Assembly: GCF_002854065.1 (NCBI RefSeq)
Contig: NZ_CP024147.1
Origin: Escherichia coli
Lineage (GTDB): Bacteria; Pseudomonadota; Gammaproteobacteria; Enterobacterales; Enterobacteriaceae
Length of the DNA stretch: 64,000 nt
Direction: 5' to 3' (one strand)
The notes below the pieces were generated by a model that ran no database searches, was not told the DNA's origin, and saw nothing but the letters and a program-made list of their open reading frames with translations. This document shows, in pieces, positions 4,235-8,989 of this stretch (positions within the stretch are counted from its first letter, which is position 1; each line of letters starts with the position of its first letter). A program made the translations under genes and the position numbers.

Positions 4235-7038
<2,804 letters not shown>

Positions 7039-7070
7039 GTTATTTCTGAAACGAGGAAAGAAAAGATATT

Positions 7071-7103
7071 AACTGAACTTAATTTATAAAATTAAGTTCA
7101 GTT
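7071..7103. terminator. 15-bp perfect-stem hairpin between convergent nikR and hicB-like gene
   Basis: AACTGAACTTAATTT (7071-7085), loop ATA, AAATTAAGTTCAGTT (7089-7103). Confidence 0.5.
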
Positions 7104-7157
7104 GCATAGATAGATCCTGTAAAGGCAGATATTCTGCGTAATGTACGCCGCTAAAAT

Positions 7158-7517
7158 TTATAAATGATTCAAACGCTCATTCAGTGTTTCAATAATATAG
7201 GTATTAACAGAGACTTGTTGCTGCGCAGCCGCATTATTAAGGCGTTCACTCAGCGATTCTGGATAGCGTAACGTAAAGGTCTTAATCTTTTCTGTACGCG
7301 CATACGGCTCAATACCCGCAGCTTTACAATCCTCAAGATACTCTCGCAGAGAAAGTTCCCCTTCTTTTTGCAGCCCCTGAATGCTGTCAGAGACAAAATC
7401 ACAATAACCTGACAAGCCCAGGAATTTGCCACGAAATGCATTCAGTTCTGGCACGTAAGTGATAACAGCAGGTTGCCCGGCAATCTCCATAGAGTTTGGC
7501 GTCTTCAGTTTGATCAT
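7158..7517 (-). CDS. HicB-like antitoxin (RNase H-like N-terminal region plus C-terminal ribbon-helix-helix)
   Basis: 119-aa ORF, 4-nt overlap with upstream HicA-like gene; C-terminal SLSERLNNAAAQQQVSVNTYIIETLNERL resembles an RHH DNA-binding tail. Confidence 0.55.
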   Translation of the reverse strand: MIKLKTPNSMEIAGQPAVITYVPELNAFRGKFLGLSGYCDFVSDSIQGLQKEGELSLREYLEDCKAAGIEPYARTEKIKTFTLRYPESLSERLNNAAAQQQVSVNTYIIETLNERLNHL

Positions 7518-7789
7518 GGTTTTACCCCTATACTTAGTAACCAGTCACGCACGCTTTCTACAGCGCCTTTGTCGGTATCTGGCGACGGATGAGGCCGATG
7601 GAAACACGCAACGCTCATATTTAGTATGAACTTACAACGCGAACCTCTTCCTTCCTTAATTTCTCCGCCTAATGCTTTAACCAGTGACTCTATATCAGAC
7701 CACTTGATCCCTTGAGGAACAGGAGATTTAAATATTTGATCCAATGTATTTTTTTGTTTCTTCCGTAAAGCCTGTACCTTGGTTCTCAT
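7514..7789 (-). CDS. HicA-like mRNA interferase toxin
   Basis: 91-aa basic ORF; pattern LGGEIKEGRGSRCKF...FHRPHP...DKGAVESV matches the HicA G-x-GSH...HP signature; toxin-first gene order typical of hicAB. Confidence 0.55.
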   Translation of the reverse strand: MRTKVQALRKKQKNTLDQIFKSPVPQGIKWSDIESLVKALGGEIKEGRGSRCKFILNMSVACFHRPHPSPDTDKGAVESVRDWLLSIGVKP

Positions 7790-7798
7790 GGCATGTCC

Positions 7799-7850
7799 TT
7801 ATGACTTCACTTTATGACATCAATAGTATGACATCACAGTATGAAGTCAA
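7799..7850. promoter_or_regulatory. Four-fold TATGA(C/A)NTCA repeat array upstream of the HicAB-like operon (putative antitoxin operator)
   Basis: TATGACTTCA (7800), TATGACATCA (7813), TATGACATCA (7827), TATGAAGTCA (7840) at 13-14 bp spacing, starting 10 nt upstream of the hicA-like start codon. Confidence 0.5.
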
Positions 7851-7861
7851 GTTTCCCTTCC

Positions 7862-8989
7862 TCACGCCATTGTCCCAATCGTCTTCCTGAATCGCAGCAG
7901 TGCGATGGTGAAAAACGCGCCGCCAATTGCCATCAGCGTCAGGAACTGCGGCCAGACGATTTCGAATCCGGCACCCCGGTAGAGAATGGCCTGCGCGAGG
8001 CTAACAAAGTGTGTCGTCGGCATGGTCAGCATAATGTCCTGCACCATCTGCGGCATACTTTCGCGCGGCGTGGAGCCACCGGAAAGCATTTGCAGCGGCA
8101 GCAGCACCAGAATCACCAGCAGCCCCAGTTGCGGCATTGAACGCGCTATCGTCCCCATAAAAATGCCGATTGACGTGGTGGCAAACAGACTGAGCGCCAC
8201 GCCCAGCATAAACAGCGGGATCGAGCCTTCAATCGGTACGCCCAGCACGCCTTTCACCATCAGCACCAGCGATAATCCCGATACCACCAGCACCACCAGC
8301 CCCATCGACCAGACCTTAGCCATCATGATCTCAAACGGCGTTATCGGCATCACCAGTAAATGTTCCACCGTGCCGTGTTCACGCTCGCGGATCAGCGCCG
8401 ATCCGGTCAATACAATCGCCAGCATGGTAATGTTGTTGATGATTGCCATCACCCCGCCAAACCACGCGGGATCAAGGTTCGGGTTAAAGCGCATCCGGGT
8501 TTCCAGCGATACCAACGGTTCGCTGTTATCGCGGTAGCGCGCGACAAAGCTGTTCACTTCACCGTTGATAATATTCTGGATATACCCGTTGCCGGTAAAT
8601 GCCTGGCTCATGCGCGTGGCATCGACGTTCACCTGAATATCTGGCTGGCGTCCAGCGAGGACATCACGCTGAAAATTAGGCGGAATATTTATCGCGAAGG
8701 TATAGCGTCCGGCGTCCAGTCCGGCATCCATCTCATCGGCGGTGATCATCTCCGGTGGCAAAAACCACGGGCGATAGAAGCTGTTAACGATCCGATTCGA
8801 TAACTGCGATTGATCCATATCGGCAATGGCGATCGGTGCCAGGTTCAACGATCCTGGCGTAACGGTCGCTGACGAATACACCGACACCGTAAACGAGAAG
8901 ACAATCAATGTCAGCATCGCTTTATCACCGAGTAGACTGCGCAACTCTTTGATACCCAGATTAAAAATATTGCGTAAATGGCGCATCAT
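7862..8989 (-). CDS. yhhJ: ABC-2 family transporter permease YhhJ
   Basis: Polytopic permease; start MMRHLRNIF with ATG overlapping rbbA stop (ATGA); the longer ORF to 9070 is judged an upstream extension. Confidence 0.85.

What the first reader, a model, noticed from the sequence alone, without database searches (positions are those of the whole stretch)
7158..7850. HicAB-like toxin-antitoxin pair with a four-fold operator repeat where K-12 carries rhsB
A 91-aa HicA-like and 119-aa HicB-like gene pair with 4-nt overlap lies between nikR and yhhJ. Its promoter has four TATGA(C/A)NTCA repeats at 13-14 bp spacing, with outer copies forming an inverted pair, which suits binding by an RHH antitoxin. 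In K-12 this interval holds the rhsB element (established knowledge), so this is a variable integration site. The HicA assignment is by motif only.
Basis: partly seen in the sequence, partly recalled or inferred. Interest (0 to 1): 0.45.

Follow-up and report, generated by a model that had tools for sequence, protein, structure and literature searches.

The report
HicAB toxin-antitoxin operon with four-box operator
This is a real but largely ordinary HicA/HicB toxin-antitoxin gene pair, already named as such in public E. coli annotation, whose promoter carries four copies of a conserved binding box for its own antitoxin; its one unusual trait is that the toxin lacks the histidine that all tested HicA toxins need.

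Summary
Two minus-strand ORFs, 91 aa (7514-7789) and 119 aa (7158-7517), overlap by 4 nt. They lie between nikR and yhhJ. Both pass the Pfam HicA_toxin and HicB gathering scores, and AlphaFold models match solved HicA and HicB structures best. RefSeq already names them HicA/HicB family proteins, and about 2060 of 5426 complete E. coli genomes carry them at this site.

The four TATGA(C/A)NTCA repeats are the only matches in the 64 kb window. Their 8-bp core, TGAnnTCA, covers the -35 hexamer, the spacer, the predicted start site and the 5'UTR. In 27 orthologous loci the box is about 44-fold enriched upstream of hicA, always with 13-nt spacing within a pair. The box sequence changes with the HicB ribbon-helix-helix beta-strand (KTFTLRY with TGACTTCA; GKFNVRL with GGTACTA; GKFALRL with GATATCA). 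This is strong comparative support for an autoregulatory operator.

Three refinements:
- hicAB sits beside nikR in Citrobacter, Klebsiella and Enterobacter too, so it is probably ancestral and K-12's rhsB is derived.
- The whole subfamily has GSR where canonical HicA has the catalytic GSH, plus an invariant His64 on the neighbouring strand.
- About 790 genomes carry a decayed allele that lacks one repeat unit, including the -10 hexamer, and has a stop at hicA codon 2.

No experiment on this subfamily was found. Interest is modest.

The parts
7514..7789 (-). hicA, 91-aa HicA-family protein of the 'GSR' subfamily. It has an N-terminal two-helix extension (residues 1-29) followed by an alpha-beta-beta-beta-alpha core (residues 30-86).
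   Evidence: ORF. Pfam PF07927 scores 37.7 bits against a cut-off of 27. The AF2 model has pLDDT 95.1. The best Foldseek matches in the PDB are HicA toxins 6g26, 1whz, 4c26 and 6hpb. RefSeq protein WP_001259382.1 is named HicA family toxin.
7158..7517 (-). hicB, 119-aa antitoxin. It has an N-terminal partial RNase-H-like domain (residues 8-67) and a C-terminal Arc-like ribbon-helix-helix domain (residues 77-118; beta-strand K79-T-F-T-L-R-Y85).
   Evidence: ORF. Pfam PF05534 scores 56.8 bits against a cut-off of 21, with weak Arc and CopG hits. The family profile matches AmrZ and Arc at E about 4e-4. The AF2 model has pLDDT 89.7. The best Foldseek matches are HicB structures 6g26_B, 4p7d, 4p78 and 6u0i, plus Arc 1b28.
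7514..7517 (-). ATGA overlap of the hicA stop codon and the hicB start codon. Translational coupling is inferred.
   Evidence: Sequence. The same -4 overlap is present in most of the 74 related loci parsed.
7842..7849 (-). Operator box 1 (coding strand TGACTTCA). It overlaps the -35 hexamer TTGACT at 7850..7845.
   Evidence: TTGACTTCA at about -60 from the ATG is conserved in Enterobacterales orthologues.
7829..7836 (-). Operator box 2 (coding strand TGATGTCA). It lies in the promoter spacer, directly upstream of the -10 hexamer.
   Evidence: This box is degenerate in Citrobacter, Klebsiella and Enterobacter. It is removed, together with the -10 hexamer, by a 14-bp deletion allele.
7823..7828 (-). 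Predicted -10 hexamer TACTAT.
   Evidence: Consensus scan only. An equivalent -10 (TATAAT, TAAAAT) sits directly before box 3 in orthologues.
7815..7822 (-). Operator box 3 (coding strand TGATGTCA). It lies immediately downstream of the -10 hexamer, over the predicted transcription start.
   Evidence: A box at about -32 to -35 from the ATG is conserved in nearly all clade A loci.
7802..7809 (-). Operator box 4 (coding strand TGAAGTCA, inverted relative to box 1). It lies in the 5'UTR just upstream of the Shine-Dalgarno sequence AAGGA (7796-7800).
   Evidence: A box at about -19 to -22 from the ATG is conserved, in either orientation.
7071..7103 (.). Perfect 15-bp-stem AT-rich palindrome between the convergent nikR and hicB genes. 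It is a candidate bidirectional terminator.
   Evidence: Terminator-like scan hit on the minus strand, which is a consensus match only. It lies outside the 7147-7864 segment that is shared with O157-like genomes.

Best explanation
This is a chromosomal type II toxin-antitoxin operon of the HicAB family. [quoted passage not shown]

A single sigma-70-type promoter (-35 TTGACT, -10 TACTAT) is predicted to drive both genes. hicB translation is coupled to hicA through the ATGA overlap.

The N-terminal partial RNase-H-like domain of HicB is inferred to bind and neutralise HicA. Its C-terminal Arc-like RHH domain dimerises and is inferred to bind the four 8-bp pseudo-palindromic boxes TGAnnTCA. These boxes lie at 13/14/13-bp intervals over the -35 hexamer, the spacer, the start site and the 5'UTR. 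Bound HicB, or the HicAB complex, would therefore block RNA polymerase and autorepress the operon.

HicA has the dsRBD-like fold of the HicA mRNA interferases and is under purifying selection. Its mode of toxicity is inferred, not shown. The canonical catalytic His is replaced by Arg51. The invariant His64, which lies directly across from Arg51 on the neighbouring beta-strand, is the most likely substitute.

What is shown: the ORFs, family and fold membership, the box anatomy, box conservation and covariation, the synteny, and the decay alleles. What is inferred: DNA binding by HicB, neutralisation of HicA, toxicity and RNase activity.
For: - Family: Pfam hits above the curated cut-offs for both proteins. 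PGAP uses the same names. A near-identical HicB (PIA10431.1) is listed as class 4 RHH in Gerdes 2024 Table S1.
- Fold: the HicA model has pLDDT 95 with H30-39, E43-46, E51-56, E59-64 and H74-86. HicA toxins (6g26, 1whz, 4c26, 6hpb_A) make up most of the top Foldseek hits, though with weak E-values of 0.7-2.3. The HicB model has pLDDT 90, and its best hits are the solved HicB proteins and Arc. The RHH profile matches Arc and AmrZ.
- Operator in the window: all four matches to the repeat pattern lie within 50 nt and overlap the promoter-like site.
- Operator across species: in 27 loci with the KTFTLRY strand, box density is 32 per kb in the 100 nt upstream of hicA against 0.73 per kb elsewhere, and spacing within a pair is always 13 nt. 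This holds although synonymous sites between genera are saturated, with pS about 0.8.
- Covariation: box type follows the RHH beta-strand residues.
- Selection: in close pairs dN/dS is 0.07-0.18 for hicA and 0.04-0.08 for hicB.
- Decay alleles hit hicA and its promoter but leave hicB intact: a frameshift at GRG|SR seen on 588 contigs, and a 14-bp promoter deletion with a stop at codon 2 in about 790 genomes. This is the pattern expected if HicA is harmful without HicB.
- Precedent: Y. pestis HicB3 and B. pseudomallei HicB are RHH tetramers that bind operators overlapping the -10 hexamer (PMC11594946).
Against: - No experiment exists for this locus or this subfamily in the literature searched.
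- The His of the GSH motif, which is essential in every HicA tested (His36 in S. pneumoniae, PMC6159526; His24 in N. gonorrhoeae, PMC12297915), is Arg51 here and in all 72 aligned relatives.
- The PHP histidine that is retained (His67) was dispensable in the gonococcal toxin.
- NCBIfam and PADLOC give no hit.
- The Foldseek E-values for the small HicA domain are weak.
- The promoter is a consensus match only.
- Box 2 is poorly conserved in the closest genera, so four-fold occupancy is not assured.
Confidence: 0.8

Rival explanations
1. The pair is no longer a toxin-antitoxin system. Because it has lost the catalytic histidine, the 91-aa protein is a non-toxic RNA-binding or HicB-binding partner. 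The operon would then be only an autoregulated RHH regulator with an accessory subunit.
For: Arg replaces the essential GSH histidine in the whole subfamily. No toxicity data were found for any member. The retained PHP histidine was dispensable in gonococcal HicA.
Against: hicA shows strong purifying selection, and the residues G49, S50, R51, F63, H64, R65, P66, H67 and P68 are invariant across phyla. The subfamily is spread over at least 377 species and occurs on plasmids, as expected of an addictive module. E. coli lineages repeatedly inactivate hicA while keeping hicB identical. His64 lies opposite position 51 in the beta2-beta3 hairpin of the model, so an active site could be rebuilt.
Confidence: 0.13
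2. The system is a functional HicAB pair, but its main biological role is abortive-infection phage defence in a variable island, not stress response or simple genomic addiction.
For: Gerdes 2024 (PMC10865869) argues that HicA modules often sit in defence islands. The interval is a variable spot that holds rhsB/ISEc1 or a sugar-utilisation island in other strains.
Against: PADLOC gives no hit. The neighbours here are housekeeping genes (nik operon, yhhJ-rbbA), not defence genes. The pair sits beside nikR in four genera, which points to long vertical residence rather than defence-island turnover. This role was not tested here.
Confidence: 0.2
3. The four repeats are not a HicB operator. They could be sites for another host regulator, or scars of the event that brought the cassette in.
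For: Binding has not been measured. The repeats start only 12 nt from the yhhJ stop codon, which is also the boundary of the variable segment.
Against: The same box recurs upstream of hicA in genera with unrelated flanks, at fixed positions relative to the -35 hexamer, the -10 hexamer and the ATG. The box sequence switches exactly when the residues of the HicB RHH strand switch.
Confidence: 0.03

Closest known systems
Yersinia pestis HicA3-HicB3 (PDB 4p78, 4p7d) and Burkholderia pseudomallei HicAB (PDB 6g26): class 4 hicAB with an RHH HicB
   Same: The gene order is hicA then hicB. HicA has a dsRBD-like fold. HicB has a partial RNase-H fold plus a C-terminal RHH domain. The operators overlap the promoter and the -10 hexamer. 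These structures are the best Foldseek matches to both models.
   Different: Sequence similarity is too low for phmmer or a family profile to find the solved HicA and HicB proteins at a significant E-value; the best HicA hit is 9svk_A at E 0.24. HicA here is 91 aa with a 29-residue N-terminal helical extension. It has GSR in place of GSH. The operator is four 8-bp TGAnnTCA boxes at 13-14 bp, not the two 15-bp sites of Y. pestis or the single palindrome of B. pseudomallei.
E. coli K-12 HicAB (hicA/yncN and hicB/ydcQ; PDB 6hpb): class 3
   Same: It is the same superfamily in the same species, with the same gene order. The HicA fold match has a target-normalised TM-score of 0.63.
   Different: K-12 HicB has an HTH domain, not an RHH domain. 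K-12 HicA is 58 aa with a catalytic His23. It lies at a different chromosomal locus. K-12 lacks the present pair altogether.
Phage P22 Arc repressor and P. aeruginosa AmrZ (Arc-type RHH repressors)
   Same: The HicB C-terminus aligns to Arc residues 6-47 and AmrZ residues 16-57. Arc's base-contacting strand residues Q9, N11 and R13 (their base-contacting role is from my own knowledge of Arc, not from a tool result) align with HicB T80, T82 and R84. In both cases a dimer recognises a short pseudo-palindrome and the sites are tandemly arranged.
   Different: Here the RHH domain is fused to a toxin-neutralising domain. The box spacing is 13 bp and there are four boxes. The operator sequence is different.

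Membership tests
HicA toxin family (Pfam PF07927 / COG1724) | Sequence match to the family HMM above the curated threshold | tested here: met
   37.7 bits against a gathering score of 27; residues 30-80 match profile positions 1-52 of 58. NCBIfam has no model that hits.
HicA toxin family (Pfam PF07927 / COG1724) | dsRBD-like alpha1-beta1-beta2-beta3-alpha2 fold | tested here: met
   The AF2 model (pLDDT 95.1) has H30-39, E43-46, E51-56, E59-64 and H74-86. HicA toxins 6g26_E/F, 1whz, 4c26 and 6hpb_A are among the best Foldseek matches, with target-normalised TM-scores of 0.52-0.66 but weak E-values of 0.7-2.3.
HicA toxin family (Pfam PF07927 / COG1724) | Catalytic histidine at the start of beta2 (the G-S-H motif), essential in every HicA tested | tested here: not met
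   The motif is G49-S50-R51 here, and it is invariant in 72 aligned relatives. R51 aligns to the His of RGSH in PDB 9svk_A and in a canonical plasmid HicA. Literature: PMC6159526 for His36 and PMC12297915 for His24.
HicA toxin family (Pfam PF07927 / COG1724) | Growth arrest through translation-independent RNA cleavage | not testable with these tools
   This needs expression and RNase assays. The only indirect support is purifying selection and the natural hicA-inactivating alleles.
HicB antitoxin family (Pfam PF05534; class 4 of Gerdes 2024) | Sequence match to the family HMM above the curated threshold | tested here: met
   56.8 bits against a gathering score of 21. An orthologue about 80% identical (by eye; not computed) is listed as class 4 RHH in Table S1 of PMC10865869.
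HicB antitoxin family (Pfam PF05534; class 4 of Gerdes 2024) | N-terminal partial RNase-H fold (beta-beta-beta-alpha core) | tested here: met
   The model has E8-12, E15-22, E27-32, E40-43 and H46-67. It matches HicB 6g26_B (E 4.5e-3, probability 1.0), 4p78_A (target-normalised TM-score 0.59), 6u0i, 6hpb_B and 2dsy.
HicB antitoxin family (Pfam PF05534; class 4 of Gerdes 2024) | C-terminal ribbon-helix-helix DNA-binding domain | tested here: met
   Weak Pfam hits to Arc, CopG and FitA at residues 76-116. The family profile matches AmrZ at 3.7e-4 and Arc at 4.6e-4. Foldseek matches Arc 1b28 with a target-normalised TM-score of 0.70. The model has helices at 87-99 and 104-118.
HicB antitoxin family (Pfam PF05534; class 4 of Gerdes 2024) | hicA upstream of hicB in one operon, closely linked | tested here: met
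   There is a 4-nt overlap here, and the same overlap is found in most related loci.
Type II toxin-antitoxin system (general) | The antitoxin binds operator sites in its own promoter and autorepresses | tested here: inconclusive
   Comparative evidence is strong: 44-fold box enrichment, fixed positions relative to the promoter, and covariation with the RHH strand. Binding and repression were not and cannot be measured here.
Type II toxin-antitoxin system (general) | The antitoxin protein neutralises the toxin by direct binding | not testable with these tools
   This needs co-purification or rescue assays. No multimer prediction was available.

The most novel reading that the evidence does not exclude
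The 91-aa protein represents a widespread HicA clade that has not been characterised experimentally. It occurs in at least 377 species and also on plasmids. In this clade the active site has been rebuilt. The canonical catalytic His at the start of beta2 is replaced by an invariant Arg (R51). An invariant His (H64) has appeared directly opposite it at the end of beta3. A two-helix N-terminal extension has been added.

If so, these toxins cleave or bind RNA by a mechanism, and perhaps with a specificity, different from all studied HicAs. E. coli itself supplies natural intact, frameshifted and promoter-deleted alleles with which to test this.
Probability: 0.35. Interest if true: 0.5.

Novelty: new member of a known kind. 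Interest (0 to 1): 0.3.

Why it matters
The locus is a second HicAB system, absent from K-12, that sits in more than a third of complete E. coli genomes, including O157:H7 and O55:H7. It has never been studied as far as the searched literature shows.

The comparative analysis gives a ready-made operator code for this HicB clade. A change in the RHH strand goes with a change in the box, and the 13-bp spacing stays constant. That could be tested directly and used to predict regulons or to design orthogonal repressors.

The missing catalytic histidine means that either this large clade is not toxic or HicA catalysis is more plastic than is assumed. Either answer would adjust how HicA genes are annotated as toxins.

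None of this overturns current understanding. It is an incremental addition to a well-known family.

Tried and rejected
- NCBIfam and PADLOC returned no hit for either protein.
- Rfam found no RNA family in 6900-8000 at E up to 1.
- phmmer of HicA against PDB sequences found nothing. The family profile gave only a weak HicA hit, 9svk_A at E 0.24.
- A literature search for the RefSeq accessions and for hicAB together with yhhJ found no study of this locus.
- I checked whether any experimentally tested HicA belongs to this GSR clade. Three do not. S. meliloti HicA keeps the conserved His. N. gonorrhoeae HicA is 60 aa with GSH. E. amylovora has a 59/136-aa pair and was reported non-toxic. For the IncI2 plasmid p45 the HicB carries pfam15919, not the PF05534 domain found here, but the HicA sequence itself was not examined.
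- Two papers could not be read because they are not held: PMC6302177 and PMC2631989. I therefore could not check whether the founding H. influenzae hicAB belongs to this clade.
- I looked for a remnant of hicAB in K-12-like genomes. There is none: the sequences diverge from the nikR stop codon to the yhhJ stop codon.
- I considered that the repeats might be insertion scars. I rejected this because the boxes recur in unrelated genomic contexts.
- dN/dS between E. coli and other genera could not be computed because synonymous sites are saturated, so closer pairs were used.

Full report
**1. The observation.**
The region was read directly and its ORFs listed.
- On the minus strand there is a 91-aa ORF at 7514..7789 and a 119-aa ORF at 7158..7517. 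They share the 4-nt ATGA overlap.
- nikR (6637..7038, +) lies to the left. The convergent yhhJ ends at 7862 on the right.
- The pattern TATGAMNTCA matches at 7800, 7813, 7827 and 7840 and nowhere else in the 64 kb window. Chance predicts 1.28 scattered matches.
- The outer cores, TGACTTCA at 7802-7809 and TGAAGTCA at 7842-7849, are exact reverse complements.
- A sigma-70-like site on the coding strand overlaps the repeats: -35 TTGACT at 7850..7845, a 16-nt spacer, and -10 TACTAT at 7828..7823.

On the coding strand the order is as follows. Box 1 is the -35 hexamer. Box 2 is in the spacer. The -10 hexamer comes next. Box 3 covers the predicted start site. Box 4 follows, then the Shine-Dalgarno sequence AAGGA (7796-7800), then the ATG.

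**2. What the proteins are.**
- Both proteins pass the curated Pfam thresholds. HicA_toxin scores 37.7 bits against 27. HicB scores 56.8 bits against 21. The HicB C-terminus also gives weak Arc, CopG and FitA ribbon-helix-helix hits.
- RefSeq/PGAP already names them 'type II toxin-antitoxin system HicA family toxin' and 'HicB family antitoxin'.
- AlphaFold models built on alignments of 72 and 70 relatives are confident.
  - HicA has pLDDT 95.1. It shows two N-terminal helices and then the alpha-beta-beta-beta-alpha dsRBD-like core.
  - HicB has pLDDT 89.7. It shows a four-strand-plus-helix N-terminal domain and two C-terminal helices typical of an RHH monomer.
- Foldseek against the PDB gives matching results.
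  - For HicA, B. pseudomallei HicA ranks first, and T. thermophilus TTHA1913 and E. coli HicA are also among the top matches. Those E-values are weak because the domain is small.
  - For HicB, the B. pseudomallei, Y. pestis and E. coli HicB proteins rank at the top, and Arc also matches.
- A profile of the HicB family aligns its C-terminus to Arc and AmrZ at E about 4e-4. This places HicB T80, T82 and R84 at the Arc positions Q9, N11 and R13, which contact bases (their role in Arc is from my own knowledge, not a tool result).
- Gerdes (2024, PMC10865869) classifies hicAB operons with an RHH HicB as class 4. His Table S1 contains a 119-aa HicB that is clearly orthologous to this one.

**3. The operator.**
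Relatives of HicA were collected from one genome per species. At least 377 species encode one, and 80 loci were fetched.

The upstream regions show a clear footprint.
- In 27 loci whose HicB has the RHH strand (K/R)TFTLRY, the 8-mer TGACTTCA or its complement (at most one mismatch) occurs at 32 per kb in the 100 nt before hicA.
- It occurs at 0.73 per kb in the other ~5 kb of each locus. These loci are from Enterobacterales and Pasteurellaceae, with HicA 56-85% identical to the query.
- Start-to-start spacing within a pair is always 13 nt.
- Synonymous sites between these genera are saturated, with pS about 0.8. Neutral conservation therefore cannot explain the boxes.

The usual layout in these loci is as follows.
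- Box, 5 nt, then a box that is also the -35 hexamer.
- About 16-17 nt of spacer, then the -10 hexamer.
- Box, 5 nt, box.
- The Shine-Dalgarno sequence and the ATG.

In Escherichia, Citrobacter, Klebsiella and Enterobacter the far-upstream box is missing, and a weaker box sits in the spacer. E. coli has the best-preserved four-fold array.

The 46 loci with other RHH strands lack TGACTTCA entirely and carry different boxes at the same 13-nt spacing.
- Strands of the form GxF(N/Q/V/S)xR go with RGTACYR boxes, at 2-4 per locus against 0.08 in the first group.
- Strands of the form GK(F/L)A(L/V)R go with GATATCA.

A box sequence that switches when the DNA-reading strand switches is what a cognate operator would show. 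Binding itself was not measured.

**4. How it most likely works.**
By analogy with the tested class 4 systems, a single promoter transcribes hicA-hicB. In those systems (Y. pestis HicB3 and B. pseudomallei HicB) the antitoxin is an RHH tetramer that binds operators overlapping the -10 hexamer (PMC11594946).
- hicB is translationally coupled to hicA through the ATGA overlap, which is conserved in most relatives.
- HicB would neutralise HicA through its N-terminal domain.
- HicB would repress the promoter through RHH dimers seated on the TGA/TCA half-sites of each box. The boxes occlude the -35 hexamer, the spacer and the start site.
- These steps are inferred.

**5. The unusual feature.**
Every HicA tested depends on the histidine of a G-S-H motif at the start of beta2. 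This is His36 in S. pneumoniae (PMC6159526) and His24 in N. gonorrhoeae, where the downstream PHP histidine was dispensable (PMC12297915).
- Here the motif is G49-S50-R51, invariant in all 72 aligned relatives.
- Profile alignments place R51 on the canonical His. They place H67 on the PHP histidine and H64 on a Thr.
- In the model, beta2 spans 51-56 and beta3 spans 59-64. In that hairpin H64 pairs directly across from R51. This register is an inference from the secondary structure; I could not inspect coordinates.

The clade is nevertheless under purifying selection, with hicA dN/dS of 0.07-0.18 in close pairs. E. coli also shows alleles that disable hicA while keeping hicB.
- One is a frameshift exactly at GRG|SR, seen on 588 contigs.
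- The other is a precise 14-bp deletion of one repeat unit, TGATGTCATACTAT, which is box 2 plus the -10 hexamer. It comes with ATG-TAA at codon 2 and is present in about 790 of 2057 carrier genomes.
- This pattern fits a protein that is harmful when unopposed. It is not proof.
- I found no experimental work on any member of this clade.

**6. The genomic site.**
- K-12-like genomes and the window diverge exactly from the nikR stop codon to the yhhJ stop codon, and no hicAB remnant is present.
- About 2060 of 5426 complete E. coli genomes carry hicAB here.
- O157-like strains also have a ~6-kb island (GntR regulator, PTS, FGGY kinase, aldolase) between nikR and hicB.
- Citrobacter has the identical rbbA-yhhJ-hicA-hicB-nikR order. 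Klebsiella and Enterobacter also have hicAB abutting nikR.
- hicAB is therefore probably the old resident, and the Rhs/IS element is the replacement.

**7. Verdict.**
The object is a member of a well-known family that annotation pipelines already recognise.

This analysis adds four things:
- a defined operator with comparative support and an apparent recognition code;
- the evolutionary polarity of the site;
- the decay alleles;
- the missing catalytic histidine.

Only the missing histidine could be of wider interest. Interest is 0.3. Novelty is 'new member of a known kind'.

Noticed in passing
window 7815-7836 (repeat units 2-3); locus L085:1006-1108: A common E. coli allele has a precise 14-bp deletion of one repeat unit, TGATGTCATACTAT. 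This removes box 2 and the predicted -10 hexamer. The same allele has ATG-TAA at hicA codon 2 and a cluster of substitutions in the 5' half of hicA, while hicB is identical. It accounts for about 790 of the 2057 genomes that hold the promoter region.
   Followed up: partly
window 7637-7645 (GSR codons of hicA); protein P0103: A 55-aa frameshifted HicA (…EGRGGAVSSY) breaks exactly at the GSR motif. It is recorded on 588 contigs and is named 'HicA-like protein [Escherichia coli]'. Other truncated variants (P0071, P0066, P0036) also exist. Which lineages carry them was not determined.
   Followed up: partly
loci L086, L087 (Citrobacter), L088 (Klebsiella), L005 (Enterobacter sp. JUb54): hicAB lies next to a convergent nikR in four genera. 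Citrobacter has the same rbbA-yhhJ-hicA-hicB-nikR order as the window. This suggests the pair is ancestral at this site and that K-12's rhsB-yhhH-ISEc1 block is the derived state.
   Followed up: yes
locus L002:6353-11962 (E. coli 2009C-3378): O157-like genomes carry a ~6-kb island between nikR and hicB. It encodes a GntR regulator, PTS IIA/IIB/IIC of the galactitol type, an FGGY kinase, HPr and a class II aldolase. The shared hicAB segment starts at window position 7147.
   Followed up: no
window 7071-7103: A perfect 15-bp-stem AT-rich palindrome (AACTGAACTTAATTT…AAATTAAGTTCAGTT) lies between the convergent nikR and hicB genes. It looks like a bidirectional terminator. It is absent from both the K-12-like and the O157-like versions of the interval.
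   Followed up: partly
loci L034-L083 (alpha-, beta- and gamma-proteobacteria, cyanobacterial and other MAGs): Distant members of the same HicAB clade carry two boxes of a different sequence at the same 13-nt spacing over the -10 region. The boxes are GGTACTA/AGTACTA, GATATCA, or GACACTA…TAGTATCA. The box type tracks the residues of the HicB RHH beta-strand.
   Followed up: yes
window 7862-7864 (yhhJ stop codon): The variable segment is bounded exactly by the two stop codons. The yhhJ stop is TGA in the window but TAA in the rhsB-carrying and O157-like genomes. The nikR stop is TGA here and in the K-12-like genome but TAA in the O157-like genome.
   Followed up: no
proteins P0052, P0057, P0060, P0079: Several database records name HicA homologues of this clade 'hexulose-6-phosphate synthase'. 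The records are from Pectobacterium, Leminorella and E. coli. This is evidently a propagated misannotation.
   Followed up: no
plasmid hits H28-H39: Relatives of this HicA clade (35-49% identity) are common on Piscirickettsia salmonis plasmids (89 records), on Sinorhizobium and Rhizobium megaplasmids, and on Deinococcus plasmids. The clade is therefore mobile outside Enterobacteriaceae, although it is chromosomal and syntenic within that family.
   Followed up: no
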